Counted from the first letter of the stretch, positions 10,401-26,073 are shown. The stretch: 64,000 bases of DNA from an uncultured delta proteobacterium (GCA_963791285.1 CAWBSC010000023.1:399767-463766); one strand, 5' to 3'. Numbers and translations are program-made. Notes: generated by a model not told the origin, from the sequence alone.

Positions 10401-10743
10401 GGTTGAAATAGCCGCCGTGCAGATTGTGGCAGTGGAGGACGTCGGCGGAGCGGACGGCCGGGTGGCGATGGAGCCCGTGACTGCCCTGGAACTCGTAATC
10501 CAGCTCCCCGCGGAGAAAACAGATCATCTCATCCAGCGGGTCCGCCCCGGCGTCGAAGCCCTCGACCCAATCCCATGCGCTCGTTCGGGTGCCGACGAGC
10601 ATCCGGGACGCGTGCCCCTGACGGCGCTGGCCGGTGCACAATCTTTCGGCGACCTTGGCGGCCCCGCCTGCAACGTCGTGTGTGTTGATGTGGAGCACGC
10701 CGGGCGGCCGGTCAACGGATGGGATGCGATTCAGCGGGTTCAA
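7465..10743 (-). CDS. Two-domain glycosyltransferase: N-terminal GT4 (GT-B) fused to a C-terminal OGT/SPINDLY-like (GT41) catalytic region without TPRs
   Basis: The ORF track gives 7465..11502, but the first ~250 codons overlap the upstream gene and are R/G/A/P-rich. The probable start is TTG 10743 (G-rich SD, overlaps the upstream TGA) or GTG 10698 (VLHINTHDVAGGAAKV, a typical GT4 N-terminus). GT4 motif: IEALACGVPVVS. The C-half (RLRLGVYLRSIRPHSEVF...ADVYLDAVPYNGATSLLDPL...) resembles GT41. Confidence 0.7.
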   Translation of the reverse strand: MNPLNRIPSVDRPPGVLHINTHDVAGGAAKVAERLCTGQRRQGHASRMLVGTRTSAWDWVEGFDAGADPLDEMICFLRGELDYEFQGSHGLHRHPAVRSADVLHCHNLHGGYFNPFSLSVLSHQKPTVWTLHDMQAITGHCAHAFDCEKWLSGCGGCPYPDTQPGVWTDRTAELWVHKKLIYAHSKLHIVVPSRWLQQKVERSILRDHPVTLVANGVDCDVFKPTERSAARARFGIPDTAVVVGCLSHGGALVNAWKGGHHLQRTLQEMRRSHPGLVFLNAGAPRTPEVPGVVSTGHLDNEPDVAAALNAMDVFLYTPRADNCPLVVIEALACGVPVVSFRIGGIPELVLDGRNGCLVEDEDIQGLLRSLEFLIRHPDAREAYSREARRHATATFDLDRVLSAYRSVYDERLASHPTGRRDLRLFPMAAMPDSVLTRAFLDAEVFKASLPEDGHRDESAAPADSAGASVASAGSTAPGRPGAAHDGGNDWTEARARQRAFLARVWLKSDLTGIATGRLGGVLDATRKLLSQLSLPRTLSPREQILAELLRKELAEAASAAHVQRLLPPAMIYLSPLRLDGLKFAVPDWLREDVFRYRLARPSYFEKPGEVDAYRDYLLRLTEEVHAETQADPQSPESYRKASEFLNSANPMQLFFSDRDPGPFYARRGRIMEYVLRRAGSPVDAPCASRVHRRQRLRLGVYLRSIRPHSEVFATLPVFTGLDREAFEVHLFVLRRTHDPLEHYARQHADSLTVLPGDLKASIALMRQADLDILFFGNNITAGCTHEVILAHHRIARRQGVHFCSPVSSGSRHVDFFLLGESIAAGLPEESGFSEALLTVQGSGLCFDLTQQPEPRRIDVSREELGIPGNGTLFISGANCFKILPELMRTWATVLERTPGSSLVLYPFGPAWGDIYPRAAMTGMYRRALSEKRVDPRRLVVLDSMPDRACIDALNRMADVYLDAVPYNGATSLLDPLRADIPMAVADGGALRFAQGAAMLRELGVPEMVAIGEDEYVQLAVRLGRDASLRQALRSRIRARMSLTPDFLNPALYGRRVSRALQRLFRGDSPHAPSPAGTRPDRAAPSANPVPRA

Positions 10744-13470: not shown

Positions 13471-14586
13471 TTATGATGCACTCGCCATGGTGGCGTAGTG
13501 GTCTGGACATGCCTGGTAATACGGCTTTATTGCGGAGGAGACGGCGTGCGGATCGGAACGGCGGAGCAGTGAATTCGCCGATTCAAATTGGCTGTGCGCT
13601 GAGATCTCAGGAAAAAAATACCGACAGACGTCCACGATTTCACTGAGCTCCATGCACCGATCCCGGTAAACCCACGAAGGCAGATGAGCGTCAACGGATA
13701 GTTGCTTTATTTGATTCAAAACATCGAATGCCTCATTCAGCATGAGGGATCCGAATCTGTGCCTAAAGCAGTTCCGGGTATCCACGAACAAGATGTCTTT
13801 TGCCTCAGTGGTAAGGGCGGAATCGCGGACAACCTTTATGTGCTCATAGGCCAACATCGTCCAAGGGGCGAGTGCCTTGGACCTGGATTTGACGAACCAG
13901 CTATATTGTCGCCGAGTCTGCTCTTGCGCGGTCTCGCACGGCCGGTTCAGTCGGCGAAAAAAAAGCGGAGTGTCTACCTGGGCAATTGAACCGATCAAAC
14001 TGAGTTTGGCAAATATGGTGTGATCGGAACCGATGGTCGTGTAATAATCAAGCGCTTCTTTTAAGATGGATGTGCGGTGTAGACCATAAAACATATTCCC
14101 CCAGTTAAACTCCCAGATGGTTTTGCTGAATCTCCGACACGGGTCCAACCCCTTGGTGTCGAAAGCATCCGCCACCAACTCGACCGGCCGGTCGTCCTCA
14201 TCAATCAGTATGGTTCGTGGATACGCGACGACAACGGACCCTTCCTGTTGGAGGATGTTCAGCAGAGTGGGCATAAACCGCGGGTGGTAGATATCATGGT
14301 CCGCCGCGCACATGATGAACTCGCCTGAACACAGATCGACGGCCTTAATACAGTTGCGTGCGGGTCCCATGTTCATCGTGTTGCGATAATACGTTATGCG
14401 ATTATCGCGCCGGGCATAGTCCCGGCATATCTCGCTGGATCCGTCTTCTGAGGCGTTGTCGGATATAATGAGCTCAATGTCCGGATGCTCCTGAGCCAGA
14501 AGGGATTCGATCGATTTGGCTATAAATGGAGCGGAGTTGAAAACGGTCATTGAAATGGATACCAGCGGTTTTTTTCCAGAGGCCAT
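13471..14586 (-). CDS. Family 2 glycosyltransferase in a low-GC cassette
   Basis: 371-aa ORF. VSISMTVFNSAPFIAKSIESLL...LIISDNASEDGS...AADHDIY. Local GC is about 40-50% against >=65% in the flanks (hand counts of 60-nt blocks at 13681 and 14041). Confidence 0.85.
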   Translation of the reverse strand: MASGKKPLVSISMTVFNSAPFIAKSIESLLAQEHPDIELIISDNASEDGSSEICRDYARRDNRITYYRNTMNMGPARNCIKAVDLCSGEFIMCAADHDIYHPRFMPTLLNILQQEGSVVVAYPRTILIDEDDRPVELVADAFDTKGLDPCRRFSKTIWEFNWGNMFYGLHRTSILKEALDYYTTIGSDHTIFAKLSLIGSIAQVDTPLFFRRLNRPCETAQEQTRRQYSWFVKSRSKALAPWTMLAYEHIKVVRDSALTTEAKDILFVDTRNCFRHRFGSLMLNEAFDVLNQIKQLSVDAHLPSWVYRDRCMELSEIVDVCRYFFPEISAHSQFESANSLLRRSDPHAVSSAIKPYYQACPDHYATMASAS

Positions 14587-14696: not shown

Positions 14697-15509
14697 TCAC
14701 ACCCGTTTCAGGAAGCCGTCCGGGGCAGCGGTGATGGCAAGTTTGTGCTCAATCTGTTTGTCGATTTCCAGTTTCAGCGCCGCACCGTCGACGCCGGCAA
14801 GCGGTTTGGCCTGAAGCTGCCGCAAAAACTCGAACACCGCCGTTTTGGGGTTGTTGCCTTTGCCCCAGGGACGGTCGGTGACGAATCCCTCCGGCAGGTC
14901 CTCAACCCCCGTATCCCAAACTACGCAGTAACTGCTTTTCGAGACCAGGGGGGCGTAGGCGTGGAGTTCTGCAAGTACATGGCTGTGCGTGTGGTTGGAA
15001 TCGAGAAAAACCATGACGGTCTTGAATTCAGCGGCTCGCCCATGCACACGATGGACCACGGCCGGGTCTATCGATGAGCCCTCGATCATCTCAATCATGT
15101 GGCGCATCGGATGCGCATCGATTGCGTTGCGGTTGTGCGCGCGGATTTCGATGTCGATGCCCAGCACCCGTCGCCGCGACGCCGCGGGTAGGATCGTCGT
15201 GCCGGCGACGACGGCCTCGCAGTAGTCGAGCAAAGCCAACATCGAGGCGCTCATCACCAGGGAGCCGCCGTGAGCGATACCGGTCTCGATGACCAGATCG
15301 GGGCGAATGCGCCATATCAGCTCCTGAATGGCATATGCATCCTGCGGAACTTGGATGATGGGGCGGCCCAGCCAGGAAAAATTGTAGGCATAATGGTGCT
15401 TGATGGCCGCCTGGTTCCAGTCGTTGGACAAGGCGATAAACGACTTGTCCTCGCCGATCCCGCGGACGTTACGAGCCACTTCCTCCGAGAACAAAGCGAT
15501 TGGATCCAT
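14697..15509 (-). CDS. CmcI / cephalosporin-hydroxylase-family methyltransferase (rhamnosyl O-methyltransferase-like)
   Basis: 270-aa ORF. WLGRPIIQVPQDAYAIQELIWRIRPDLVIETGIAHGGSLV is characteristic of the CmcI family. Confidence 0.8.
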   Translation of the reverse strand: MDPIALFSEEVARNVRGIGEDKSFIALSNDWNQAAIKHHYAYNFSWLGRPIIQVPQDAYAIQELIWRIRPDLVIETGIAHGGSLVMSASMLALLDYCEAVVAGTTILPAASRRRVLGIDIEIRAHNRNAIDAHPMRHMIEMIEGSSIDPAVVHRVHGRAAEFKTVMVFLDSNHTHSHVLAELHAYAPLVSKSSYCVVWDTGVEDLPEGFVTDRPWGKGNNPKTAVFEFLRQLQAKPLAGVDGAALKLEIDKQIEHKLAITAAPDGFLKRV

Positions 15510-15523: not shown

Positions 15524-17260
15524 CTATTTAAACGTAGTGGGCATGCGGAACGACACCGCCAAATCCTGCCAGCGCGGGTCTGCTGCAACGATGGCCTCAT
15601 AGCGGGACAGGTGTCGTGCGAAGACGTGGGGATCCACCCCCAGTGCCTGCTGCGCCTGAGCGAGGAAATAAAGGGCAAACGGGTGATCGGGATGCCGGTC
15701 CAGCACCTCCTCGAAGCACCGCTGGGCCGTGACGTAATCGCCGGTCCGCATCCGGTAATTGTCGACGAAGTTTGCCTCCAGGTTCAGGCGGTAGATCAGA
15801 TCGGTGATCCGCTGGGGATCTATGCCGGGTGCGCGGATAATGTACTCGGTCATATCCACCCGACCGATCCCGATGTACTTGCTGTCGATCCAGCCCTTTT
15901 CAAAGCAGGTCCTGAACAACTCCGAGCCGCGCAGCGGCGTAGCGTAATTGAAAAAACTCCAATCAATCCCGGCGTCGTGAATGAAGCGCCGGGTCGCCTC
16001 GCGATCTTCCTCGGTCTCGCCGGGGAATCCGATGATGAAAAAGGATTGCACGAAAATGTCGTTGCGGCGCAGGCAACCAATGACATCCTTAGCCTTGTCG
16101 AGCCTCACCGGCTTCTTGATGATGTTCTTGAGCACATGGTCGGACCCGGATTCGATCGCCAGAATCACCGTGTCGACCCCGCCCTGCTTCATCAGACAGG
16201 CCAATTCCTCGTCGATGAACGTCAGCGTGATGCCGTTCGGCATCTCGACCCGAATGCGGAATTCGGCGAGACGCCGAAACATCTCCTTGGCGCGCGGGAC
16301 ATCAATCAGCAACTGGTCGTCGTAGATCGTCAACACATTCATGCCATAGTGTTCGACCAGGTGGCGAACGTGCTCGACGATCGCGTCGACGTCGGCGAAC
16401 CTCATACTCCTGCCATGCAATGACGGCTCAGCGCAAAACACGCAATGGAAGGGGCAGCCGCGCGAGGTGACGATGAAGAACTGTCGGGTATTGCGATCAT
16501 TCCGGTAGCTGGCAAACGGCGAAAACGCCTCCTTCATGCTGTAGCGCGTGTTCTCCACCAGGTCGTAATCGAGTCGGATCGCCTCGTTGAGGTTTGCCGT
16601 CACCACGGATTTCGGCACCCGATGGGCGGCAAGCGACTCGCGTGTAACCCAAGGATCCTTTTCCAGTTCGCGCCGGGGGTCGTCCGACTCGACCAGCGAC
16701 AGCATCGCTTGCTCGCCTTCCGAGTAGCATAGCGCGTCCAGATTCGGCTGATCGGCCAGGATTTCCTCCCACGCGGTCGTCACTGCTGGACCCCCCATCA
16801 GGGTCAGGATGCGCGGGTCGAAGCGCTTGACCGTTTCCGCCAGGTAGGCAACATGAGTGTAGGACGTGTCGTAGCTCATCGAAAAGCCGATCACCTCGGG
16901 GCCGGTTTCGGCCAGCACTCGTTTCAGCTCTGCGATGCGCTGCCCCTCGGTGGCGTACAGATTGAGATCGAGGATTTTCACCTCGGGCGTCGGCCGCGCC
17001 TTGGCCTTAATGTACGAGGCCATGGCCAGCACACCATAGGGGAACGCCAGGAACGAGCGAACCGCCTTGCCGGGCACGGGTGCGCCAGCCTGGAATACCA
17101 GGTACGGCAACACGCACAATATCACCTTGGCCGGAACCTGACGCTTGACCTGATCCGAGACCGGAGCCCAGGGCTGAGCCAAAGACGGATTCGCCGAGCC
17201 GCCTCGAGGTAAGTACGCGAGTTCGCTGCCTCTCGGCACGATTGCCATAGCGTCGCCCAT
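15524..17260 (-). CDS. B12-binding-domain radical SAM enzyme (class B, putative methyltransferase), paralog 1
   Basis: 578-aa ORF. N-terminal cobalamin-binding-like region, radical SAM motif TSRGCPFHCVFCAEP, helical TPR-like C-terminus. Confidence 0.85.
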   Translation of the reverse strand: MGDAMAIVPRGSELAYLPRGGSANPSLAQPWAPVSDQVKRQVPAKVILCVLPYLVFQAGAPVPGKAVRSFLAFPYGVLAMASYIKAKARPTPEVKILDLNLYATEGQRIAELKRVLAETGPEVIGFSMSYDTSYTHVAYLAETVKRFDPRILTLMGGPAVTTAWEEILADQPNLDALCYSEGEQAMLSLVESDDPRRELEKDPWVTRESLAAHRVPKSVVTANLNEAIRLDYDLVENTRYSMKEAFSPFASYRNDRNTRQFFIVTSRGCPFHCVFCAEPSLHGRSMRFADVDAIVEHVRHLVEHYGMNVLTIYDDQLLIDVPRAKEMFRRLAEFRIRVEMPNGITLTFIDEELACLMKQGGVDTVILAIESGSDHVLKNIIKKPVRLDKAKDVIGCLRRNDIFVQSFFIIGFPGETEEDREATRRFIHDAGIDWSFFNYATPLRGSELFRTCFEKGWIDSKYIGIGRVDMTEYIIRAPGIDPQRITDLIYRLNLEANFVDNYRMRTGDYVTAQRCFEEVLDRHPDHPFALYFLAQAQQALGVDPHVFARHLSRYEAIVAADPRWQDLAVSFRMPTTFK

Positions 17261-17283
17261 GTTCCCGCACCCTCCACGGTGCT

Positions 17284-18471
17284 TCAGCGATTCAGGAGAT
17301 ACAGCACGGCGCCAGTGCCATGCCAGCTGTGCAGGCGGAATTTATAGCGATAGCCGCAATCCCTGAACGCCTCCATCAGCGCCTTCGGGCACTCCCAAAG
17401 CCCGAGGCGGTTGTGATAGACCGCCAAAGTAACCAGAGGACGCCACGCACGTATCGTGCCGACACCGCCTAAAATGGCGTCCAGTTCCGCCCCCTCGATG
17501 TGAGCCTTGATAAAACTCGGCCGCAGCCCGAGGTCGTCGATACGCCGGACCGCCACCTGGACGTTACCAAAGTCACAAAACTGCGACGCGAAATCCAGAC
17601 CATCGAAAAAGACCTGGGTCGTGCTCGCGCGACCCACGGCGCAGGCCAGCACATGCATCCGCAACCGTTCGTCGGCCGGAAGAGCGTCCATCCACATCTG
17701 CAATCGCGCGCGGTTCTCGTCATCAGGCTCGACCGCCCAGATCTCGCGGAAGCGATGCCCGACACGCTCCAGAAAGGTCCGGCACACACTGCCGTGGTGC
17801 GCGCCCAGGTCCAGCAGGCTTTCTTCGGTACCGAGGGTATCGGCCACTTCGTCGATAAAATAGCGGTTTTCAGTATTTACCGGGGCGTCGTCGAACAACC
17901 ACTCCTCGTGGAGACGATGCCATGCCAGGAACTGCAAGTGGTGGGCGCGCGACGCATCGTCGTCATAGGCTCTCAGCACGGCGCCGATACCGTCCACCTC
18001 ATCTTGAGTCAACTCGTCGACGAACCAGCCGTTTCCCAGCGGGTGGCGGTCGGCATAAGATGCGGTAATGGTATAGAAAGGGACCATGTCGCTCCATCCA
18101 CTCTCGGCCAGCGGCGTCACCACGCGGGTGTAGGGCACCTTGCCGACGCAGATCGCCAGCAGGTGTGCGGCCTTGTCGCGCGGCGAAACCTCTTCGGGGG
18201 CATGGAGGGCTACGCTTCGCCAAAACGGATCCGAGCGGCGGGTCGCCGCGTCGGCGTCGATGACGAAGGCCACGGGGATACCCAGCCGGTCGAAGTACTG
18301 TTTGGCCAGTTTGCCGAGCGCGCCGGCGCCGTAAAGCGCCAGCGGCTTGTCGACAGGCCGAGCCCGGGCCGTCACCGGCCGCGCGGCGATTTCGTGCAGC
18401 AGCGATATCGCTGCGTGAGCGTCCGGTGAGGTGGTCAGCCGGCGAGATGCCACTCGGTCCCGTGAGGCCAT
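17284..18471 (-). CDS. FkbM-family SAM-dependent methyltransferase with N-terminal Rossmann-like extension
   Basis: 395-aa ORF. LLDLGAHHGSVCRTF...AVEPDDENRARL...FIKAHIEGAELDAILGG has FkbM-type features. Confidence 0.75.
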   Translation of the reverse strand: MASRDRVASRRLTTSPDAHAAISLLHEIAARPVTARARPVDKPLALYGAGALGKLAKQYFDRLGIPVAFVIDADAATRRSDPFWRSVALHAPEEVSPRDKAAHLLAICVGKVPYTRVVTPLAESGWSDMVPFYTITASYADRHPLGNGWFVDELTQDEVDGIGAVLRAYDDDASRAHHLQFLAWHRLHEEWLFDDAPVNTENRYFIDEVADTLGTEESLLDLGAHHGSVCRTFLERVGHRFREIWAVEPDDENRARLQMWMDALPADERLRMHVLACAVGRASTTQVFFDGLDFASQFCDFGNVQVAVRRIDDLGLRPSFIKAHIEGAELDAILGGVGTIRAWRPLVTLAVYHNRLGLWECPKALMEAFRDCGYRYKFRLHSWHGTGAVLYLLNR

Positions 18472-18483
18472 GGCCGTCTCCCC

Positions 18484-20136
18484 TCAGACCGGCATGCCGA
18501 ATTCTACCGCGTACGAACGCCACTCCGGATCGTCGCGTACCAGTCTTCGGTAGGTGCGCATGTTCTCCTCGATCTGCACCGCATCCGCGTTCAGCGCCCG
18601 ATAGGACTGCGCCAGATAGTAATGGCCGAAGGCATGATTGCCGTAGCGCTCGATCACTTCTTCGAAGCAGCCGGCGGCGATCCGATAATCGCCTATTTTC
18701 ATGCGCCGATTGTTGACGAAATTAACGTCGAGGTTCATGAGATAGGCGCGCCGTGAAATCTTCGCAGGTTCCAGGCCTATTTCAGGCGCGTTGAGGATGT
18801 ACTGGTTGCCCTCGATATCGCCGAGCTTCATGTTGCGCGGGATATAGCCCTTTTCAGTCGCAATGCGATACAGCTCGCTACCCCGCACCGGCGACGCCAT
18901 GGAGAACCCGCTCCAATCGAGCCCCCACTCCTTGATGCAGCGCACGGTTTGCTCGCGGTCCTCCTCACGTTCGCCTGGCAGCCCGACGACGAAATAGGCT
19001 TGCACGAAGATATCGTTTTGTTGCAGCGCCTTAACCACCGGGCCGACACGCTCCAGGCGGATCGGTTTCCTGATCACCTTGCGCACCACATGGTCCGATC
19101 CCGACTCGATGGCCAGTGGCAGGGTATCCAGTCCCGCCTGCTTCATCAGGCAGGCCATCTCGTCGTCGATGAAAACCACGGTGACCCCGTTGGGCGTCTC
19201 CAGCCGCAACTTGAATTCCGCGAGCCGGCGGAACAGCTCCTTGGCTCGCCGCATATCCATCAGCAGTTGGTCATCATAGATCGTCAACACGTTCATGCCA
19301 TACCGGTCGACTCGAAACCGCACATGCTCGATGATGGCATCGACCTCGGCATAGCGCATGCTCTTGCCGTGCAGCGAGGGCTCGGCGCAGAACACGCACT
19401 TGAAAGGGCAGCCGCGTGAGGTGACGAGAAAAAACTGGCGCACATCGGTCTCGTTTCGATAGGAGGCGAACGGGGAGAATGCCTCTTTCATGCTGTAGAC
19501 CTTGCGGTCGATTAAGTCATAGTCGACCGCGATGACATCGTTGAGACGTGAAACATACACGCTGGTGGGTTTGACGCCCCGCGATAACGAAGCGCGGGTC
19601 ACCCATGGCGCGCCGGCGAACGCGTCGTCCAAGCTGGGCGAATTGACCACCTTCAGCATCGCCGCTTCGCCTTCGGAGTAGCACAACACATCGATATCCG
19701 GCTGGTCGGCGAGGATCTCCTCGTACGCGGTGGTTGCCGCTGCACCGCCGATGATGACTCGTGTCGCCGCCGAAAATGACTTGGCCTGGCCGGCGATTGC
19801 GGCAACGTGTTTATAAGACTGGTCAAACATCATTGAGATGCCGACGATGTCCGGCCGCAACTCGGCCATCGCCGCGTCGAGCGCCTGTGCATACTGGTCC
19901 GAAGAGTAGCGATTGAGATCGACAATTCGCAGATCGGGAACGGCATGGGCCCGGCGGCGCAAATACGTCGCAATCGACAACACGCCATATGGAAAGGCCA
20001 GGAAGCTGCGGGTCTTGCCCTGAGTGGCATCCTTCTTCTTTTCCAGGTAAGGCAATATCACGAACAGCAGCGACCGGCGCGGGGCGCGGCCCGCAACCGA
20101 TACCGTCGGATCGCAATGCGTTGGGTTCACATCCAT
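18484..20136 (-). CDS. B12-binding-domain radical SAM enzyme (class B), paralog 2
   Basis: ORF 18484..20181. The preferred start is ATG 20136, preceded by AGGAG. Motif TSRGCPFKCVFCAEP. Colinear with paralog 1 over its full length. Confidence 0.85.
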   Translation of the reverse strand: MDVNPTHCDPTVSVAGRAPRRSLLFVILPYLEKKKDATQGKTRSFLAFPYGVLSIATYLRRRAHAVPDLRIVDLNRYSSDQYAQALDAAMAELRPDIVGISMMFDQSYKHVAAIAGQAKSFSAATRVIIGGAAATTAYEEILADQPDIDVLCYSEGEAAMLKVVNSPSLDDAFAGAPWVTRASLSRGVKPTSVYVSRLNDVIAVDYDLIDRKVYSMKEAFSPFASYRNETDVRQFFLVTSRGCPFKCVFCAEPSLHGKSMRYAEVDAIIEHVRFRVDRYGMNVLTIYDDQLLMDMRRAKELFRRLAEFKLRLETPNGVTVVFIDDEMACLMKQAGLDTLPLAIESGSDHVVRKVIRKPIRLERVGPVVKALQQNDIFVQAYFVVGLPGEREEDREQTVRCIKEWGLDWSGFSMASPVRGSELYRIATEKGYIPRNMKLGDIEGNQYILNAPEIGLEPAKISRRAYLMNLDVNFVNNRRMKIGDYRIAAGCFEEVIERYGNHAFGHYYLAQSYRALNADAVQIEENMRTYRRLVRDDPEWRSYAVEFGMPV

Positions 20137-20161: not shown

Positions 20162-21478
20162 TCATGGCGCGCCGCAACCATCGCGCGTTCGGCTCAGTGC
20201 TTCGGCCCATTGCGCCAGCTTCGGGTCGGTGGGAAAGTAATGGTGGAATTGAAAGGCGCTGCCCTTGGTCTCTTCGAAGGCGTCGTGCGGCATGGTTGGG
20301 AGCGCTTTAATCGACAGCGTTCCGTCGTCATTGAAAATGCGGCCCGATTCCTGGCACGCCAGGAACCAGTTGTGGGGCTGATCCCCCAACACGCTTCGAA
20401 AATCGATCCGAGCGCGTGATCGCGACACCAGGTTCTGATAGGTGACGATGAATGCGTCGGCCAGACGCGCGCGGGTGAAACGCTGCCGGACATTCGACGC
20501 TGCCCGTCGAGCCATGGCCTGACGTTCGGCGGGGGTGCGAGATAACCACCGGATCGCCTCCGCGAACTCGCGTCGGGACGACACCACCATCCCCGTCACA
20601 CCGTGAGAGACGATCGCGGTCTCGGCCGCGTTGTCGAGGACAACGGGCACCACGCCCATCGCCATGGCCTCGATCAGCGCATTCTCGGCCGTGCCATAGT
20701 GCCGAGGGTTGAGCAAGTAAGCCAGGACATCCATCTGGCCGAGTTCGGCGGCCACATCGGTGACGTATCCCCGGAACTCGATCAGTTGCGGACGCCCCGC
20801 AGCGACACACTGGCGATGCAACTGCGCACGGTTCAGCTCGTCGCCCACCATCCGCACTCGAAATTCGGGGTCGCGTACGGCGGCTAACCAGTCGACGTAC
20901 TCGGGGTGCAACTTCGAGAAGTTCAAGCTGCCGAGGTAACCGGTCACCATGCGACGAGTTGGGTGGGCCTGTCGCCACAGGGGTGCCGGCAGATCTTCAC
21001 AGCCGACTCCACTGGAAATGACCGTGATCCGCCCCTCGGCCGCCGATCTTGTCCCGCGGATATTGGGAGCACCCAGCGAGCAAGGCGACGTGAGCACGAA
21101 CTGTGATGCCGCATCGGCCAGCCCGGCCGGTATCACCGGATTGACCAGACCGGACTGATGGCACCAGACCAGCAGCCTTGCCGTCAGAGCATGCAACCCG
21201 CACAGGGTCTCCAGAGTAGCTGGATGGTTCCACCACTCCACCTGGACGATGTCTGCCGTCTCGATGCGCCGCCTCAGCTCCTCACGGCCCGGCCGAACGA
21301 CAACGTCGCAGCCCGCGTCACGGATGGGCCGAACGAATTGGGTCTTTTCCGGACTCTCCAGACAAACGAACGAATGCCGAATGTCGCTACCGGCTGCGGC
21401 CGTTGCCCTGACCAGATTCGACAGCGCCCTGCCCACGCCACCGCCCAGATGCGGCGTCAAATGCAAAACGGTAATCAC
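20162..21478 (-). CDS. GT4-type (GT-B) glycosyltransferase with extra C-terminal domain
   Basis: 438-aa ORF. MITVLHLTPHLGGGVGRAL N-terminus; E-x7-E region GTAENALIEAMAMGVVPV. ATGA overlap with the upstream gene. Confidence 0.8.
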   Translation of the reverse strand: MITVLHLTPHLGGGVGRALSNLVRATAAAGSDIRHSFVCLESPEKTQFVRPIRDAGCDVVVRPGREELRRRIETADIVQVEWWNHPATLETLCGLHALTARLLVWCHQSGLVNPVIPAGLADAASQFVLTSPCSLGAPNIRGTRSAAEGRITVISSGVGCEDLPAPLWRQAHPTRRMVTGYLGSLNFSKLHPEYVDWLAAVRDPEFRVRMVGDELNRAQLHRQCVAAGRPQLIEFRGYVTDVAAELGQMDVLAYLLNPRHYGTAENALIEAMAMGVVPVVLDNAAETAIVSHGVTGMVVSSRREFAEAIRWLSRTPAERQAMARRAASNVRQRFTRARLADAFIVTYQNLVSRSRARIDFRSVLGDQPHNWFLACQESGRIFNDDGTLSIKALPTMPHDAFEETKGSAFQFHHYFPTDPKLAQWAEALSRTRDGCGAP

Positions 21479-22554
21479 GCAGAAACCGTCGAGATACGGT
21501 TCACGCCGGAGGTAACGCCTGGAACCGACTCGAGTTCGCCGGGTGCATACACTTTAAACTTCGCCAGCAGGCCTTCCCTGTACGCGTCAATATTGTCCGG
21601 CATGCCATGAGATAATTGTCCGCACTGACCGCACACCGGATTCTGCTTGCGCTTCCCCTGCAGATGCTGCTTGCGCAGGGCATTCATCCGATCACCATGC
21701 CAGATGGAAGGGATGGACTGGGTCCTGGCATCGCCGATGACCAGCTTCCGTCCCCAGTCCAGAAAGCAGGAACTCACCAAGCCATCCGCATTCACCGACA
21801 TCGAATAGAAAATGTAGGGGCAAGTGTCGGTGAAGGTGATCGGCTGCTTGTAAATCCCCTCGATGATTTTGGCGCCCGTGTACGCCTCGACATCGAACCC
21901 CGGCCAGCATGGAGCGAAATTCTCTATGAAGATGCGGTCACAGGAATCGCCGAAGGTATCCAGGAACTCCTGTCGTTGGGACGCAGAGATCAGATCGCCG
22001 GGAATCTTGATCACCACTTCGCAGCCGTTCCGGTTGGCATACAGCCATCGCACATTTTTGACAAAGCGGCCGAAATCGAAATCAAAGCCGGTGAACTTCA
22101 GGTAGTGCTCACGATTCATCCCGTCGACTGAAATATTGATCTTGTCGAGACCCGCGTCGAGGACGGGCCCAAGCCGCTCCGGCGTTATGAGTGAGCCGTT
22201 TGTGGTGGTGTCGACATACTCGACATGGCCGCTGGCCTTGGCGTACGCGATCATCTTCGCCAGGTTCGGGTTGAGGAAGGGCTCGCCGTCCTTGTACAAG
22301 CGCAGCACCTTTATCGGCTTTTCAAACGCGCCCAGGTCATCAACCACCTTCTGAAGAACCGGGAGTTTCATCACCCCTTGATAACGACCGGTTTCATCGA
22401 TCAAGTCTCGGTGCCCTGTCGGGCAAAATGAACAGTGAAAGTTGCAGACACTCGCCGGATCGGCGAAGACCACGAAGGGAGTGGTCAACGGGATCACGTC
22501 CTGCAACGGGGTGCGGCCTTCAAGATTTATTCCAGGTTTCAGCTTGGCTTTCAT
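21475..22554 (-). CDS. Radical SAM protein with SPASM/twitch-like C-terminal Cys cluster
   Basis: 359-aa ORF. CNFHCSFCP radical SAM motif. C-terminal Cys-rich region (TCPYIF...SSCFLDW...CGQCGQ). Confidence 0.85.
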   Translation of the reverse strand: MKAKLKPGINLEGRTPLQDVIPLTTPFVVFADPASVCNFHCSFCPTGHRDLIDETGRYQGVMKLPVLQKVVDDLGAFEKPIKVLRLYKDGEPFLNPNLAKMIAYAKASGHVEYVDTTTNGSLITPERLGPVLDAGLDKINISVDGMNREHYLKFTGFDFDFGRFVKNVRWLYANRNGCEVVIKIPGDLISASQRQEFLDTFGDSCDRIFIENFAPCWPGFDVEAYTGAKIIEGIYKQPITFTDTCPYIFYSMSVNADGLVSSCFLDWGRKLVIGDARTQSIPSIWHGDRMNALRKQHLQGKRKQNPVCGQCGQLSHGMPDNIDAYREGLLAKFKVYAPGELESVPGVTSGVNRISTVSA

Positions 22555-23494
22555 ATCTCACAGGCTGGTCAGCGACGGGGAACCGTCCGGATTCATCTGG
22601 TTTCGTGAATATGGTTTCCGCCATCCCCTCTTCGAGGGTATAGCGCGGCTGCCACCCCAGATTTTGCAACTGGGTATTCGCCCCGCAGATCATGGGCGGT
22701 TCCCATGCGCGATACGGCAGCGCACCGAACTGCACCAATTCCGAGCGACCGATCAGGGTGGCGATGGTCGTCACCACTTGACGAACGGACACCGGACGTC
22801 CGGACGAAACATTGAAGACGCCGCCGGCCCCCTTTTCCAACAGGACGCAGAAGGCTGCGGCCACATCGACGACGTAAATGTAATCCCGCACCTGCTCGCC
22901 GGCTGTTGTGAGAAACGGAGCGCCCCGCGTCAGCGCCCGGATGGCGGCAGGTGGCAGCCGGCGTTCGTCCTCCTGGGGACCATACGGGTAAAAGATCCGC
23001 CCCCAGGCAAACTGAATACCGGCCCGCGCGGCGATCTGCTGGCCCATCAGGCAGCAGGAAAGCTTGGCCGCCGCATATAGACTTTGGGGCCGGAGGGGGC
23101 TGTCCTCGTTCAGGCAGCCCGCGGCCGTGTCGTACTCGAAGCAGGTTCCCGCGCCCACGATCCGGCGGCAGCCCGCCCGGATCAGCTCGCCGAAGAGGGA
23201 TAGGCTCCCGGTCAACGAATGGATATTTTCCGCAGCATTCAGGTAGGCGCCGGGTTCGGCATGCCAGGCCAAGTGAACGCAACCCTCGGGCCGGACGTCC
23301 GACAGGGCGCGTCGCAGCGCTTCCGCGTCGCCGAGATCTCCGGGCATGACCCGGATCGACCGGCGCACCCCGCGCAGGCGATGCAAGTCATTCCCGGGCC
23401 TTGCCAGGACGACGACCTCGTGCCCCCTCGCCAGCAGGGCCCGGGTCAGGTGCGCCCCGATGAAGCCGGAGGCACCGGTCACGAACACCCTCAT
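22520..23494 (-). CDS. NAD-dependent epimerase/dehydratase-family enzyme (likely sugar-nucleotide 4-ketoreductase/epimerase)
   Basis: ORF 22520..23560. The start is taken at MRVFVTGASGFIGAHL (ATG 23494, ATGA overlap with the upstream stop). YAAAK catalytic motif. Confidence 0.85.
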   Translation of the reverse strand: MRVFVTGASGFIGAHLTRALLARGHEVVVLARPGNDLHRLRGVRRSIRVMPGDLGDAEALRRALSDVRPEGCVHLAWHAEPGAYLNAAENIHSLTGSLSLFGELIRAGCRRIVGAGTCFEYDTAAGCLNEDSPLRPQSLYAAAKLSCCLMGQQIAARAGIQFAWGRIFYPYGPQEDERRLPPAAIRALTRGAPFLTTAGEQVRDYIYVVDVAAAFCVLLEKGAGGVFNVSSGRPVSVRQVVTTIATLIGRSELVQFGALPYRAWEPPMICGANTQLQNLGWQPRYTLEEGMAETIFTKPDESGRFPVADQPVRYESQAETWNKS

Positions 23495-24027
23495 GGAAGC
23501 GGCTCCCAATCCCGGTAGGACATGTCCTTTGCGGAAATTGAGCCCACCGGCAGCGGCCACTCGATTTTAAAAGCGGGGTCGTCCCATCGCACACCCCCCT
23601 CGCTTCCCGGGTGGTAGAAGGCGGACACCTGGTAGAAGACTTCCGCACCCTCCGTGAGGGTCTGGTACCCGTGGGCGAAGCCCTCCGGAACATAGAGCAG
23701 CCTGCGATTTCCGGCCGACAGCTCGACCGCCGCCCATTGCGAGAAGGTCGGGGAGTCGGGCCTCAAATCGAGGATGACGTCGCAAATGGCCCCGGCGGTG
23801 CAGCGCACGAGCTTCGCCTCCGCGTGCGGCGCCCGCTGGTAATGCATTCCGCGCACCGTGCCGACCGTGTGATTGTAGGACAGATTGCACTGGACCAGAT
23901 CGGGGTTCAGGCCGTGCGCCAGGAATTCCCGACGGCAAAACGCACGCGCGAAAAAACCCCGTTCGTCCGCGCGGATTTCGGGTTCGATCAGGTAGGCGCC
24001 TTTCAACCGGGTGGCGACGAAACGCAT
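23491..24027 (-). CDS. NDP-4-dehydro-6-deoxyhexose 3,5-epimerase (RmlC/cupin family)
   Basis: 178-aa ORF. RGMHYQ and LYVPEGFAHGYQTL motifs. Confidence 0.9.
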   Translation of the reverse strand: MRFVATRLKGAYLIEPEIRADERGFFARAFCRREFLAHGLNPDLVQCNLSYNHTVGTVRGMHYQRAPHAEAKLVRCTAGAICDVILDLRPDSPTFSQWAAVELSAGNRRLLYVPEGFAHGYQTLTEGAEVFYQVSAFYHPGSEGGVRWDDPAFKIEWPLPVGSISAKDMSYRDWEPLP

Positions 24028-24033: not shown

Positions 24034-24810
24034 CTACCACACCTTCCACTCGGCGCGGCCGGATTCCCATAGTCGGTTGAGGTCTTCCTTGTCGCGCAGC
24101 GCATCCATACACTTCCAGAACCCGTGGTGCTTGTAGGCCATCAGCTGCTGGTCCCGCGAAAGGCTCTCCAGCGGGTCCTGTTCCCACATTTTCTGGTCCG
24201 AGTCCGGCGGCAAATAGGAGAACACGTCCGGCCGCAGGACGAAAAAACCGCCGTTGATCCAGCCGCCGTCGCCGACGATTTTTTCCTTGAAGCTGGATAC
24301 GCGTTCGTCGTCGTCCAGCGTCAGCAGGCCGAACCGCCCCGCCGGCTGGACGGCCGTCACCGTGGCGATTTTCCCGTGTCTGCGGTGAAACGCGATCAAC
24401 TCTTCCAGGCGGATGTCGGCGATGCCGTCGCCGTAGGTCAGCAGGAACTCTTCGTTGCCGACGTAGTGTTGGACTCGCTTCAGGCGGCCGGCCGTCCGAG
24501 TATGAAGCCCGGTTTCCACCAACGTCACCCGGAAATTCTCCGTATTGGCGTGATAGATTTCAAAGCTGTTGGTTTTCAGATTGAAGGTGACGTCCGAATT
24601 GTAGACGTAGTAGTTCATGAAGTACTCTTTGATCATGTACCCCTTGTAGCCCAGGCAGATGATGAAGTCGGTATGCCCCTGCGCGGCGTAAATTTTCATG
24701 ATGTGCCAGAGCATGGGTTTTTCGCCGATCTCGATCATCGGCTTGGGTTTCAGCCATGATTCTTCCGATATGCGAGTACCGAGTCCGCCGGCAAAAATGA
24801 CGACTTTCAT
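24034..24810 (-). CDS. rfbF: Glucose-1-phosphate cytidylyltransferase
   Basis: 258-aa ORF. MKVVIFAGGLGTRISEESWLKPKPMIEIGEKPMLWHIMKIY is a near-textbook RfbF N-terminus. Confidence 0.9.
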   Translation of the reverse strand: MKVVIFAGGLGTRISEESWLKPKPMIEIGEKPMLWHIMKIYAAQGHTDFIICLGYKGYMIKEYFMNYYVYNSDVTFNLKTNSFEIYHANTENFRVTLVETGLHTRTAGRLKRVQHYVGNEEFLLTYGDGIADIRLEELIAFHRRHGKIATVTAVQPAGRFGLLTLDDDERVSSFKEKIVGDGGWINGGFFVLRPDVFSYLPPDSDQKMWEQDPLESLSRDQQLMAYKHHGFWKCMDALRDKEDLNRLWESGRAEWKVW

Positions 24811-24870: not shown

Positions 24871-26073
24871 CTATATTGCGATCGGCCTCGGCCCGCGACA
24901 CCGCGTGCGATCGGCCGGTTTGGGCGTCTCGACGACCGGACGCCTGCGACCCCGATGCTCAGCCGCGGGAGCGGCCGCCCCCATTGCTTTTTCTTCGACC
25001 TGTCGAATCTGCTCCCGACAATACGGGTACATGTCCTTTGCCGGGTGACCGGAGTAATAGGCTTTATACCAGTCGGTCGTCATGCGCAGGCATTCGTCGA
25101 CAGTGAGGACGCTGCGCCAATCGAGATCAGCATGGGCCTTGTCGCAGTTCAGCTTGAGACGCATCGCTTCGTGGGGGGCCTGCGGATCGGAGAGGTCATC
25201 CCAACATCCCTTACCCCAGCAGTCGATGAGCCGGTCGGCCATCGCGGCCACCGTCAGGGCGCTGCGGCTCTCGGGGCCGAAATTCCAGGCGCCGGAATAG
25301 GCCGCGGGGTCTCGCCAGAGGGCGGCGCCGAGGCGCAGATAACCGTGAAGGGGTTCCAGAACGTGCTGCCAGGGCCGGATGGCGTTGGGGTTGCGAATGC
25401 CGATGGCCCGCCCGCTGCTGAGGGCACGGATGCAATCGGGGACGAGGCGGTCTGCACCCCAGTCGCCGCCGCCGATGACATTCCCCGCCCGCGCGGATGC
25501 GGCTCCGATGCACGCGACCCCGGGCCGTGAACCGGAAGGGCGCGGGGAAAAAAACGATTTCAGATACGCCTTGAAGACCAGTTCCGCGCACCCCTTGGAT
25601 GCGCTGTAGGGATCATGGCCCCCCAGCGGGTCGTTCTCCCGGTAGCCCCAGGCCCACTCCTGGTTTTCATAACACTTGTCGCTGGTCACATTGACCATGA
25701 CTCTGACGCTGGCGGTTCGGCGGACAGCCTCCAGCACGTTCACCGTGCCGCCGACGTTCGTGTCGAAGGTCGTTTTCGGCTCATCGTATGAAAGACGAAC
25801 AATGGGCTGGGCGGCCAAGTGAAAGACCACCTCCGGCTGATAGGTAGTGAACGCCTCCATCAGCCCGTTCAAATTTCGAATGTCTCCGTAAAGGTGCGTT
25901 ATTTTCTCGTGCAGCCTCGTTGCCATAAAATTGCTGGGGCTGCTCGGGGGCGCGAGTGAATAGCCGATGACGTCCGCACCCAATTCCTTCAGCCAGATCG
26001 CCAGCCAGGACCCTTTGAAACCGGTGTGGCCCGTGATGAGCACCGTCTTGTCTTTGTAGCTGTCAGCGAACAC
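24871..26073 (-). CDS. rfbG: CDP-glucose 4,6-dehydratase (with ~40-aa low-complexity C-terminal tail)
   Basis: 400-aa ORF. KTVLITGHTGFKGSWLAIWL and YSASKGCAEL motifs. Confidence 0.9.
   Translation of the reverse strand: MFADSYKDKTVLITGHTGFKGSWLAIWLKELGADVIGYSLAPPSSPSNFMATRLHEKITHLYGDIRNLNGLMEAFTTYQPEVVFHLAAQPIVRLSYDEPKTTFDTNVGGTVNVLEAVRRTASVRVMVNVTSDKCYENQEWAWGYRENDPLGGHDPYSASKGCAELVFKAYLKSFFSPRPSGSRPGVACIGAASARAGNVIGGGDWGADRLVPDCIRALSSGRAIGIRNPNAIRPWQHVLEPLHGYLRLGAALWRDPAAYSGAWNFGPESRSALTVAAMADRLIDCWGKGCWDDLSDPQAPHEAMRLKLNCDKAHADLDWRSVLTVDECLRMTTDWYKAYYSGHPAKDMYPYCREQIRQVEEKAMGAAAPAAEHRGRRRPVVETPKPADRTRCRGPRPIAI

What the first reader, a model, noticed from the sequence alone, without database searches (positions are those of the whole stretch)
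15524..20136. Tandem paralogous B12-radical-SAM genes bracketing an FkbM methyltransferase
The 578-aa and 550-aa products are colinear over their whole length. By eye, more than half the residues are identical. One example is AFSPFASYRN...QFF[IL]VTSRGCPF[HK]CVFCAEPSLHG[RK]SMR...YGMNVLTIYDDQLL...LAIESGSDHV; another is GDY..A..CFEEV near the C-terminus. Both end in a helical TPR-like module that is unusual for class-B rSAM enzymes. A duplication retained within one operon suggests two successive or regiospecific radical methylations.
Basis: seen in the sequence. Interest (0 to 1): 0.55.

Follow-up and report, generated by a model that had tools for sequence, protein, structure and literature searches.

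The report
Paired B12 radical-SAM glycan methylase genes
Two anciently diverged sister genes for vitamin-B12-type radical enzymes, each ending in a short TPR tail, sit in a horizontally mobile sugar-decoration gene cassette that in other bacteria lies inside flagellin glycosylation islands. They most likely add carbon-bound methyl groups to an unusual surface sugar, and nobody appears to have characterised this enzyme family.

Summary
Genes A (15524-17260, 578 aa) and B (18484-20136, 550 aa) are colinear and 52% identical, and they bracket an FkbM methyltransferase gene. Both have a B12-binding Rossmann domain, a CxxxCxxC radical-SAM barrel and a C-terminal module of about two TPR repeats.

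The pair is not a recent tandem duplication. Synonymous sites are saturated. A and B each have 65-81% identical orthologues in other lineages, and 40 residues are fixed differently between the two clades. B is accessory: some cassettes carry A alone.

The genes belong to a conserved, co-directional cassette: CDP-glucose pathway genes, a radical SAM/SPASM enzyme, GT4, B, FkbM, A and a CmcI-like O-methyltransferase. The window shows no polysaccharide export genes. TPR-glycosyltransferases, including a GT41 domain, lie next to the cassette. In three unrelated relatives the cassette sits beside flagellin genes; this window has no flagellar genes.

Best reading: two non-redundant cobalamin-dependent radical methylations of a CDP-6-deoxyhexose-derived sugar in a protein-linked glycan. 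No curated family reaches its cut-off, and the searched literature holds nothing on such enzymes in glycosylation islands. The substrate and the chemistry remain inferred.

The parts
15524..17260 (-). Gene A: B12-binding-domain radical SAM enzyme with TPR-like tail, 578 aa (A clade)
   Evidence: ORF. GGAGG lies upstream of the ATG at 17260. Pfam PF02310 54.6 bits and PF04055 83.2 bits. AF2 model pLDDT 86.5, pTM 0.86. Orthologues at 65-76% identity.
16661..17128 (-). A, residues 45-200: Rossmann-type cobalamin-binding domain (5 strands, 5 helices)
   Evidence: Secondary structure of the model. A profile of this domain hits only cobalamin-binding proteins in the PDB: TokK 2e-5, OxsB 1.3e-4, then weaker MetH and CysS hits. 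AprD4 is not hit.
16433..16456 (-). A, C269-x3-C273-x2-C276: radical-SAM [4Fe-4S] cluster motif
   Evidence: These columns are invariant in the 55-sequence alignment A1.
15551..15817 (-). A, residues 482-570: TPR-like helical tail (about two repeats plus a capping helix)
   Evidence: Helices 482-499, 502-506, 509-522, 527-539, 544-560 and 562-570. Profile hits to consensus TPR proteins. Foldseek hits are all TPR folds, with E = 0.1-0.5.
17284..18471 (-). FkbM-family SAM methyltransferase, 395 aa, with an N-terminal region of about 200 aa that has no family match
   Evidence: PF05050 38.6 bits (cut-off 22.7) at residues 221-376. TIGR01444 47.5 bits (cut-off 37.7).
18484..20136 (-). Gene B: paralogous B12-binding-domain radical SAM enzyme with TPR-like tail, 550 aa (B clade)
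   Evidence: 52% identical to A. PF02310 60.1 bits and PF04055 74.5 bits. AGGAG lies before the ATG at 20136. Orthologues at 73-81% identity.
19387..19410 (-). B, C243-x3-C247-x2-C250: radical-SAM cluster motif
   Evidence: Aligned with C269/C273/C276 of A.
14697..15509 (-). CmcI / rhamnosyl O-methyltransferase-family protein, 270 aa
   Evidence: PF04989 282 bits. It lies directly beside the family's radical-SAM gene in L001, L003, L004, L005, L006, L088, L089 and the P0016 contig, and within about 230 nt in L008.
20162..21478 (-). GT4-type (Glycos_transf_1) glycosyltransferase, 438 aa
   Evidence: PF13692 and PF00534. Its start overlaps the stop of the SPASM gene by 4 nt.
21475..22554 (-). 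Radical SAM / SPASM-domain enzyme (343-359 aa)
   Evidence: PF04055 64.4 bits and PF13186 49.5 bits. 71-74% identical to its counterparts in L001, L003 and L005.
22520..23488 (-). SDR-family NDP-sugar reductase/epimerase
   Evidence: NCBIfam epimerase/dehydratase hits, none reaching cut-off. The gene call in L004 is 322 aa.
23491..24027 (-). RmlC-type NDP-4-keto-6-deoxyhexose 3,5-epimerase
   Evidence: TIGR01221 177.5 bits, cut-off 155.75.
24034..24810 (-). Glucose-1-phosphate cytidylyltransferase
   Evidence: TIGR02623 394.8 bits, cut-off 300.25.
24871..26073 (-). NDP-hexose 4,6-dehydratase; the CDP-glucose type is inferred from the neighbouring cytidylyltransferase
   Evidence: PF16363 and PF01370.
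13471..14586 (-). GT2 glycosyltransferase
   Evidence: PF00535 93.7 bits.
7465..10500 (-). Large glycosyltransferase with GT4 and GT41 (OGT-like) domains. The true start is uncertain.
   Evidence: PF13692 and PF13844. It matches the L001 TPR-GT41 protein only weakly: 23% identity over 391 residues, E = 7e-10.

Best explanation
A and B are two non-redundant members of an uncharacterised subfamily of class-B (cobalamin-dependent) radical SAM enzymes.

Proposed mechanism for each enzyme:
- The [4Fe-4S] cluster on C-x3-C-x2-C cleaves SAM to a 5'-deoxyadenosyl radical.
- That radical abstracts a hydrogen from an unactivated carbon of the substrate.
- Methylcobalamin, held by the N-terminal Rossmann domain, gives its methyl group to the substrate radical.
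- A second SAM remethylates the cobalamin.

The likely substrate is a 6-deoxyhexose. It is made from glucose-1-phosphate by the cytidylyltransferase, 4,6-dehydratase, 3,5-epimerase and reductase encoded upstream. It could be modified as the CDP-sugar or after transfer by the adjacent GT4. The FkbM and CmcI-like enzymes would add further (O-)methyl groups, and the radical SAM/SPASM enzyme would perform another radical step.

A and B would act at different positions, or one after the other. A is the core enzyme, always beside the CmcI gene. B is an optional extra decoration.

The decorated sugar is probably attached to a protein by soluble TPR-glycosyltransferases. That protein is flagellin in several relatives and is unknown in this organism. 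The short TPR tail is proposed to dock a partner enzyme or the acceptor.

Shown here: domain architecture, paralogy, age of the divergence, cassette conservation, and flagellin linkage in relatives. Inferred: cobalamin use, methyl transfer, the sugar substrate, the regiochemistry and the protein target.
For: Architecture:
- PF02310 and PF04055 score above their gathering cut-offs in both proteins.
- The AF2 model (pLDDT 86.5) shows a 5-strand, 5-helix Rossmann domain, a TIM-barrel core and a helical tail. This is the layout described for class I B12-radical-SAM enzymes (PMC12931638).
- Foldseek places it among AprD4, MgmA/QCMT, CysS, TsrM, TokK and OxsB.
- The N-domain profile hits only true cobalamin binders (TokK, OxsB, MetH, CysS, a corrinoid protein) and not AprD4.
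- The best NCBIfam alignments that include the N-domain are methyltransferases: Sden_1168, PhpK, MgmA, HpnR.

Non-redundancy:
- pS = 0.63 (saturated) and dN = 0.43, an apparent dN/dS of about 0.3.
- The A clade (65-76% identity to A) and the B clade (73-81% to B) are separate. In L001 and L003 the A- and B-type genes lie in the same locus; P0012 and P0039 share a contig length.
- 40 positions are fixed differently in the two clades. They are most frequent in the post-core segment and the B12 domain.

Cassette:
- In L001, L002, L003 and L004 the segment from the 3,5-epimerase through SDR, SPASM, GT4, B, FkbM and A to CmcI keeps the window's order. The order of the first two sugar-nucleotide genes varies.
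- Single-copy versions occur in L005, L007, L008, L075, L086, L087 and L088.
- Gaps between genes from 26073 down to 10740 are at most 110 nt, and some genes overlap.
- Against L001, the modification genes (B 80%, CmcI 74%, SPASM 71%, A 70%) are better conserved than the sugar-nucleotide genes (35-57%).

Protein glycosylation:
- The window contains no Wzx, Wzy, ABC exporter or priming transferase. It does contain TPR-GT2 and GT4+GT41 fusion proteins.
- In L001/L002 the cassette plus a TPR-GT41 gene lies between two flagellin genes and before flaG-fliD-fliS-fliT.
- In L006 (Nitrospirota) the order is rSAM, CmcI, TPR-GT41, an unassigned 159-aa ORF, flagellin, FlaG, FliD.
- In L089 the cassette lies between a flagellin gene and flgJ/flgI-type genes.
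Against: - No curated family reaches its cut-off. The best is Sden_1168 at 141 bits against 575, so function is carried over only at superfamily level.
- The closest solved structure by Foldseek is AprD4 (E = 2e-19). AprD4 does not bind cobalamin and is a sugar diol dehydratase (PMC12931638).
- Class-B enzymes also perform non-methylating chemistry (OxsB, BchE, HpnJ).
- No flagellar gene lies anywhere in the 64-kb window. Flagellin linkage is seen in only 3 of about 15 distinct contexts.
- One TPR-tailed family member, P0027 (54% identical to A), sits in a cluster with no sugar-nucleotide or glycosyltransferase genes. Its neighbours are another B12-radical-SAM gene, an SDR, a class-I methyltransferase and a ThDP enzyme. 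The family is therefore not restricted to glycans.
- The TPR tail, the SPASM neighbour, and the protein methylase MgmA as best PDB sequence hit would also fit a protein substrate.
Confidence: 0.5

Rival explanations
1. A and/or B act on a protein rather than a sugar. The TPR tail would recognise flagellin or another glycoprotein, and the enzyme would C-methylate an amino-acid side chain, as Mmp10, MgmA/QCMT and PoyC do. The SPASM enzyme would be a second protein-modifying partner.
For: The best PDB sequence hit is the methyl-coenzyme M reductase glutamine methylase 9ccb (E = 5e-17). The tail is a TPR module, a typical protein-binding fold. SPASM enzymes often act on peptides (general knowledge). 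Relatives lie next to flagellin genes.
Against: The radical-SAM genes co-occur with sugar-nucleotide genes, GT4 and sugar O-methyltransferase families in 14 of about 15 contexts, whether or not flagellin is nearby. The CmcI-family gene beside A belongs to a family named for rhamnosyl O-methylation. In L088 B's position holds a class-I methyltransferase, which suggests a decoration slot in a sugar pathway.
Confidence: 0.15
2. One or both enzymes are not methylases. They would perform another radical reaction on the sugar: an AprD4-like 1,2-diol dehydration (deoxygenation), an epimerisation or a rearrangement. The Rossmann domain would then be a cobalamin-free relic, or would use cobalamin differently, as in OxsB.
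For: AprD4, a sugar-acting and cobalamin-free enzyme, is the top Foldseek hit. The window cassette lacks the E1-type (DegT) 3-dehydrase found in the related cassettes L085, L086 and L087, so a deoxygenation step could be supplied differently. The review lists AprD4 and ArsL among enzymes that do not bind cobalamin yet appear in B12-radical-SAM sequence networks.
Against: The N-domain profile finds TokK, OxsB, MetH and CysS but not AprD4. The NCBIfam AprD4 model aligns only to the radical-SAM core (residues 258-461, 59.8 bits against a cut-off of 500), whereas the methyltransferase models also align through the N-domain. Cassettes that have E1 still keep the family's radical-SAM gene.
Confidence: 0.2
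3. The cassette builds a lipid-linked surface polysaccharide (O-antigen or capsule) rather than a protein glycan. A and B would still methylate the sugar.
For: The window has no flagellar genes. The island holds several GT2 and GT4 genes and a polysaccharide-deacetylase domain. CDP-6-deoxyhexose and 3,6-dideoxyhexose pathways are classic O-antigen pathways (established knowledge).
Against: No flippase, polymerase, ABC exporter or priming phosphoglycosyltransferase was seen in the island part of the window. TPR-fused GT41/GT2 enzymes are present. Three relatives are linked to flagellin. The island runs off the left end of the window, so export genes could lie beyond it.
Confidence: 0.25
4. B is a functionally redundant or decaying duplicate of A.
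For: Some A-type cassettes lack B.
Against: B is intact and keeps every invariant family residue. Its apparent dN/dS is about 0.3 with saturated dS. B-clade orthologues are 73-81% identical across distant hosts. 40 differences are fixed between the clades.
Confidence: 0.05

Closest known systems
Carbohydrate-acting class-B radical SAM C-methyltransferases (GenK, GenD1/GntE, MoeK5, Fom3)
   Same: Same predicted architecture: an N-terminal cobalamin Rossmann domain followed by a CxxxCxxC radical-SAM barrel. These enzymes methylate unactivated sp3 carbons of sugars or, for Fom3, of a CMP-linked substrate (my own knowledge for Fom3). They are listed as characterised Csp3-methyltransferases in PMC12931638.
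   Different: Those enzymes work in antibiotic pathways of actinomycetes. The window proteins sit in a CDP-6-deoxyhexose / glycosyltransferase cassette for a cell-surface or protein glycan, carry a TPR tail, and reach no curated family cut-off.
Sden_1168 / PhpK family B12-radical-SAM P-methyltransferases (NF038361, TIGR04479)
   Same: These are the best-scoring curated models. They align from the B12 domain through the post-core region (A residues 111-491; 141.5 and 118.7 bits).
   Different: The scores are far below the cut-offs (575 and 600). There are no phosphonate genes in the cassette. A and B are not members of these families.
AprD4 (PDB 6fd2), radical SAM 1,2-diol dehydratase of apramycin biosynthesis
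   Same: It is the closest solved fold by Foldseek (E = 2e-19, TM 0.74 on the target, 18% identity) and it acts on a sugar.
   Different: AprD4 does not bind cobalamin (PMC12931638). Its sequence similarity to A covers only the radical-SAM core, and the N-domain profile does not detect it. It showed no match to the TPR tail.
TokK, TsrM, OxsB, CysS, MgmA/QCMT (solved class I B12-radical-SAM enzymes)
   Same: Overall fold. The N-domain profile matches TokK and OxsB directly, including the '(G)GxxxT...D...C/H-x-EGE' stretch.
   Different: Identity is 12-17%. The review describes their C-terminal parts as a helix bundle, unnamed C-terminal domains or a PDZ domain. None of these enzymes appears among the top 50 Foldseek hits of the TPR tail, which are all TPR proteins. 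Their substrates are carbapenams, tryptophan, nucleosides, a carrier-bound acyl group and a protein glutamine.
Flagellin glycosylation islands (for example the Pseudomonas aeruginosa glycosylation island next to fliC)
   Same: In L001/L002, L006 and L089 the cassette lies next to flagellin and other flagellar genes. L001/L002 and L006 also carry a TPR-GT41 transferase.
   Different: The window has no flagellar gene. No paper in the searched library links radical SAM or cobalamin enzymes with flagellin glycosylation.

Membership tests
Class-B (cobalamin-dependent) radical SAM enzymes, class I layout | Radical-SAM TIM-barrel domain with a CxxxCxxC [4Fe-4S] motif | tested here: met
   PF04055 83.2 bits (A) and 74.5 bits (B), cut-off 29.5. 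C269/C273/C276 are invariant in 55 sequences. Barrel seen in the AF2 model.
Class-B (cobalamin-dependent) radical SAM enzymes, class I layout | N-terminal Rossmann-type cobalamin-binding domain (5 strands, 5 helices) | tested here: met
   PF02310 54.6 and 60.1 bits, cut-off 32.1. Five strands and five helices at residues 45-191. The domain profile hits TokK, OxsB, MetH and CysS, and not AprD4.
Class-B (cobalamin-dependent) radical SAM enzymes, class I layout | Actual binding of cobalamin, and methyl transfer through methylcobalamin | not testable with these tools
   This needs purified protein. AprD4 and ArsL show that a Rossmann-like domain alone is not proof (PMC12931638).
Sden_1168 / PhpK P-methyltransferases (NF038361, TIGR04479) | Whole-protein score at or above the curated cut-off | tested here: not met
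   NF038361: 141.5 bits (A) and 142.3 bits (B) against 575. TIGR04479: 118.7 and 96.1 bits against 600.
AprD4 family radical SAM diol dehydratases (NF033070) | Whole-protein score at or above the curated cut-off, with a full-length match | tested here: not met
   59.8 and 54.1 bits against 500. Only the radical-SAM core aligns. The N-domain profile gives no AprD4 hit. The fold is similar.
Tetratricopeptide repeat (TPR) domains | Pfam TPR model at or above its gathering score | tested here: not met
   A: TPR_14 20.9 against 23.5, TPR_16 20.1 against 32.7, TPR_19 19.7 against 25. B has no hit at E < 0.01.
Tetratricopeptide repeat (TPR) domains | Helix-turn-helix repeat fold and a TPR consensus pattern at profile level | tested here: met
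   The family profile of the tail hits consensus TPR proteins: whole-sequence E = 2e-16 against an engineered many-repeat target, 5e-8 against CTPR3Y3. The AF2 model has pLDDT 93.6. All top Foldseek hits are TPR proteins, probabilities 0.9-1.0 but E = 0.1-0.5.
FkbM-family methyltransferases | PF05050 / TIGR01444 at or above cut-off | tested here: met
   38.6 bits against 22.7, and 47.5 bits against 37.7.
Flagellin glycosylation island | Physical linkage to flagellin or other flagellar genes | tested here: not met
   No flagellar domain among the 38 larger window ORFs scanned with Pfam, and no tblastn hit of the window to FliC, FliD or FliS. The feature is met in the relatives L001/L002, L006 and L089.
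Flagellin glycosylation island | Soluble glycosyltransferases with protein-binding repeats, and no lipid-carrier export machinery | tested here: inconclusive
   TPR-GT2, GT4+GT41 and TPR/GT9-like proteins are present. No Wzx, Wzy or priming transferase was found in the part of the island inside the window. The island runs off the left edge of the window.

The most novel reading that the evidence does not exclude
The TPR-tailed B12-radical-SAM enzymes, together with the tightly conserved radical SAM/SPASM partner, would form a previously undescribed protein-directed modification system. The TPR tail would dock the glycoprotein substrate (flagellin in several lineages). The enzymes would then install C-methyl groups on the protein-bound glycan or on the protein itself. 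This would be the first cobalamin-dependent radical chemistry in bacterial protein glycosylation.
Probability: 0.2. Interest if true: 0.75.

Novelty: new variant of a known kind. Interest (0 to 1): 0.5.

Why it matters
Most cobalamin-dependent radical SAM enzymes have no known function. The characterised sugar-acting ones come from antibiotic pathways.

This analysis defines a widespread subfamily: at least 910 database clusters at E <= 1e-20 in a candidate-limited search. Its members have a distinctive TPR tail and a conserved set of partners: a SPASM radical enzyme, GT4, FkbM and a CmcI-like O-methyltransferase. The cassette makes a CDP-6-deoxyhexose glycan and, in three unrelated lineages, lies next to flagellin genes.

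If the prediction holds, these bacteria decorate a surface or flagellar glycan with carbon-bound methyl branches made by B12 chemistry. That would extend radical methylation into protein glycosylation and tie glycan structure to cobalamin supply. The A-only and A+B cassettes form a natural series for working out regiochemistry.

Tried and rejected
- Recent tandem duplication or gene conversion: rejected. Nucleotide identity is 60%, third-position identity 44% and pS 0.63. The clades separate in the NJ tree.
- dN/dS as a quantitative test: of limited use because dS is saturated. I report only an apparent ratio of about 0.3.
Most of the 80 loci were 21-31% identical radical-SAM enzymes. Only about 8 were useful (L005-L011, L075).
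- Metagenome-contig scan with protein A: the peptide patterns were either too specific or too generic. It gave one 37% relative and one 93% fragment, so it did not provide copy-number statistics.
- Exact look-ups of the window's own A and B proteins: not on record. I could not read beyond the left edge of the window to look for flagellin or export genes.
- Literature: six searches combining radical SAM or cobalamin with flagellin, glycosylation island, FkbM or polysaccharide found nothing relevant. The single hit, on Rickettsia peacockii, was unrelated.
- Membership of the PhpK/Sden_1168, BchE, HpnJ, MgmA or AprD4 families: rejected on curated cut-offs.
- The idea that two copies go with absence of the E1 3-dehydrase: rejected. 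L085 has both E1 and two copies.

Full report
**1. What is in the sequence**

Three tightly packed minus-strand genes occupy 15524-20136:
- A: 15524-17260, 578 aa.
- An FkbM-family methyltransferase: 17284-18471, 395 aa.
- B: 18484-20136, 550 aa.

The spacers between them are 12 and 23 nt. Shine-Dalgarno-like AGGAG and GGAGG motifs precede the ATG codons at 20136 and 17260. The 100% identical database protein P0043 is 550 aa.

BLASTP of A against B gives 52% identity and 71% positives over 554 colinear residues. Identity by domain is 46% in the B12 domain, 67% in the radical-SAM core and 44% in the C-terminal module. The resemblance extends well outside the radical-SAM core.

**2. Domain architecture**

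Both proteins pass the Pfam gathering scores for B12-binding (PF02310) and Radical_SAM (PF04055). The middle protein passes FkbM (PF05050, TIGR01444).

An AlphaFold2 model of A, built on 55 family sequences, has mean pLDDT 86.5 and pTM 0.86. It shows:
- a five-strand, five-helix Rossmann domain at residues 45-191;
- the radical-SAM barrel carrying the invariant C269-x3-C273-x2-C276 motif;
- six C-terminal helices at residues 482-570.

A 2026 review describes this layout for 'class I' B12-dependent radical SAM enzymes (PMC12931638).

Foldseek against the PDB returns AprD4 first, then MgmA/QCMT, CysS, TsrM, TokK and OxsB. AprD4 is known not to bind cobalamin, so I tested the N-domain separately. 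A profile of residues 42-215 from 18 family members hits only cobalamin-binding proteins: TokK at 2e-5 and OxsB at 1.3e-4, then weaker hits to the methionine synthase B12 domain, CysS and a corrinoid protein. It does not hit AprD4. The NCBIfam AprD4 model aligns only to the radical-SAM core, whereas the methyltransferase models align through the N-domain as well. The N-domain is therefore most likely a real cobalamin-binding domain. Only biochemistry can prove it.

**3. The C-terminal tail**

At the single-sequence level the TPR signal is below threshold in A and absent in B. A profile of the last ~100 residues from 24 family members matches consensus TPR proteins. The separately predicted tail (pLDDT 93.6) matches only TPR folds, including cyclophilin-40, PcrH, designed CTPR proteins and the TPR parts of AspH and OGT. 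The probabilities are near 1 but the E-values are weak (0.1-0.5), as expected for a 100-residue helical module. None of the C-terminal domains of the solved B12-radical-SAM enzymes appears among those hits.

The module amounts to about two repeats plus a capping helix.

**4. Age and fate of the duplication**

Synonymous differences are saturated (pS 0.63, third-position identity 44%). dN is 0.43, which gives an apparent dN/dS of about 0.3.

Among the 120 best homologues there are two clear orthologue sets:
- 20 clusters at 65-99% identity to A and about 52% to B. P0001 is the 99% near-identical copy; the other 19 lie at 65-76%.
- 8 clusters at 73-100% identity to B and about 54% to A. P0043 is identical to B; the other 7 lie at 73-81%.

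An A-type and a B-type gene lie together in L001 (P0015/P0037) and in L003 (P0003/P0075). Forty alignment positions are fixed differently in the two clades. As a fraction of conserved positions they are most frequent in the post-core segment (35%) and the B12 domain (22%), and least frequent in the linker (5%).

A and B are therefore old, separately conserved paralogues, not a recent local duplication.

Copy number varies between cassettes:
- A plus B: the window, L004, L001/L002 and L003, and probably the P0012/P0039 contig.
- A alone: L088, where a class-I methyltransferase sits in B's position, and the P0016 contig.
- A single family member: L005, L006, L007, L008, L009, L075, L086 and L087.
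- Other adjacent pairs: L085 and L089.

The copy next to the CmcI-like gene is the constant one. B is an optional addition.

**5. Genomic context**

A and B are part of a co-directional array from 26073 down to at least 10740, with gaps of at most 110 nt. In order, it encodes:
- an NDP-hexose 4,6-dehydratase;
- glucose-1-phosphate cytidylyltransferase (TIGR02623, 395 bits);
- an RmlC-type 3,5-epimerase (TIGR01221, above cut-off);
- an SDR reductase;
- a radical SAM/SPASM enzyme;
- a GT4 glycosyltransferase, whose start overlaps the SPASM gene's stop;
- B, FkbM and A;
- a CmcI / rhamnosyl-O-methyltransferase-family protein;
- a GT2 glycosyltransferase;
- further TPR-GT2, GT4+GT41 and methyltransferase/deacetylase proteins.

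From the epimerase gene onwards, the same cassette order recurs in a Rhodocyclaceae MAG (L001/L002), in two metagenome contigs (L003, L004) and, with variations, in at least nine further loci from Alphaproteobacteria, Nitrospirota, Fibrobacteres, Thermodesulfovibrionales, Pelobacter carbinolicus, Methylomagnum ishizawai and others. Against L001, the modification genes are better conserved (B 80%, CmcI 74%, SPASM 71%, A 70%) than the sugar-nucleotide genes (35-57%).

The host of the window is an uncultured Desulfobacterales bacterium, judged from GyrA. The island has lower GC3 than its flanks. Together with the 70-80% identity to a betaproteobacterial cassette, this points to horizontal transfer.

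**6. What the glycan is attached to**

The part of the island inside the window holds no flippase, polymerase, ABC exporter or priming transferase. It does hold several soluble glycosyltransferases fused to TPR or GT41 modules.

Three relatives are linked to flagellar genes:
- In L001/L002 the cassette plus a TPR-GT41 gene lies between two flagellin genes, followed by flaG, fliD, fliS and fliT.
- In the Nitrospirota contig L006 the order is radical-SAM gene, CmcI, TPR-GT41, an unassigned 159-aa ORF, flagellin, FlaG, FliD.
- In L089 the cassette lies between a flagellin gene and rod-binding/FlgI genes.

This is the arrangement of a flagellin glycosylation island. The window itself has no flagellar gene, so the target in this organism is unknown. 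The island also runs off the left end of the window.

One family member is a counter-example. P0027 lies in a cluster without any sugar genes, so the subfamily as a whole is not limited to glycans.

**7. Most likely mechanism**

Each enzyme would cleave SAM at its [4Fe-4S] cluster. The 5'-deoxyadenosyl radical would abstract a hydrogen from an unactivated carbon of the 6-deoxyhexose, either as the CDP-sugar or after transfer. Methylcobalamin would deliver the methyl group. A and B would act at different positions or in sequence. FkbM and the CmcI-like enzyme would add heteroatom methyl groups, and the SPASM enzyme would perform a further radical step.

The steps shown here are the architecture, the paralogy, the cassette and the flagellin linkage in relatives. 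Cobalamin use, methyl transfer, the sugar substrate and the regiochemistry are inferred from the superfamily and the context.

The rivals are a protein substrate (0.15), non-methylating AprD4-like chemistry (0.2), a lipid-linked polysaccharide as destination (0.25; compatible with methylation) and a redundant duplicate (0.05).

**8. Comparison with known systems, and novelty**

No NCBIfam model reaches its cut-off. The best is the Sden_1168 P-methyltransferase model at 141 bits against 575. The characterised carbohydrate-acting class-B enzymes (GenK, GenD1, MoeK5, Fom3) belong to antibiotic pathways.

Six literature searches linking radical SAM or cobalamin enzymes with flagellin, glycosylation islands, FkbM or polysaccharides found nothing relevant. 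That library lacks most subscription-journal papers, so an existing description cannot be excluded.

I classify the finding as a new variant of a known kind. It is a class-B radical SAM subfamily with a TPR tail, embedded in a mobile protein-glycan decoration cassette. Interest is moderate (0.5). The enzymology is predictable at superfamily level. The context and the natural A-only and A+B series make a concrete, testable case for C-methylated sugars in bacterial protein glycosylation.

Noticed in passing
window 51578-52855 (+) and 52866-53612 (+): An AMP-binding (acetyl-CoA-synthetase-like) gene is split into two ORFs in different reading frames. The Pfam AMP-binding profile is covered at positions 2-310 by the first ORF and 317-378 by the second. 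This is either a frameshifted pseudogene or an assembly error.
   Followed up: partly
window 10740-13436 (-); L004 13831-16529: The window has one 898-aa ORF that fuses a GT-like N-terminus, a class-I methyltransferase and a polysaccharide deacetylase. In the 99% identical ENA contig the same stretch is called as three genes of 469, 231 and 166 aa. It also overlaps the long ORF 7465-11502, whose true start is unclear.
   Followed up: no
window 26063-26602 (-): A MerR-family regulator gene overlaps the start of the 4,6-dehydratase gene by 11 nt. It appears to head the glycan operon.
   Followed up: no
window about 1-26100 compared with 26800-64000: The glycan island has GC3 of about 0.70-0.87, against about 0.9 for most flanking housekeeping genes. 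Its radical-SAM genes are 70-80% identical to those of a Rhodocyclaceae MAG, although GyrA places the host in Desulfobacterales. The cassette was probably acquired horizontally.
   Followed up: partly
window 21475-22554 (-) and its counterparts in L001, L003, L005: The radical SAM/SPASM gene overlaps the GT4 gene by 4 nt in the window. It is among the best-conserved genes of the cassette (71-74% identity across phyla) and has no curated family match. Its role in a sugar pathway is unexplained.
   Followed up: partly
L003 2260-3486; P0016 contig 653-1888; L086 15302-16993; L088 8706-9899: Related cassettes swap in other branching or methylating enzymes. L003 and the P0016 contig have a TylC3-like sugar C-methyltransferase (PF08421/PF08484). 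Pelobacter carbinolicus (L086) has an E1-like DegT dehydrase and a ThDP enzyme. L088 has a class-I methyltransferase in B's slot.
   Followed up: no
L154/L155 8491-15106 (GCA_900089805.1, FLOH01000019.1): A TPR-tailed family member, P0027 (54% identical to A), sits with a second 494-aa B12-radical-SAM gene, an SDR, a class-I methyltransferase and a ThDP enzyme. No sugar-nucleotide or glycosyltransferase genes lie within 10 kb. This may be a different, small-molecule use of the same enzyme type.
   Followed up: no
L087 1-2948 (Methylomagnum ishizawai FXAM01000001.1): A 2691-aa protein without Pfam domains lies directly upstream of the TPR-GT41 gene and the cassette. It could be a non-flagellin glycosylation target.
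   Followed up: no
window 17284-18471 (-), residues 1-200 of the FkbM protein: The FkbM domain covers only residues 221-376. The N-terminal 200 residues have no family match. They contain a Rossmann-like 'LYGAGALGK' stretch.
   Followed up: no
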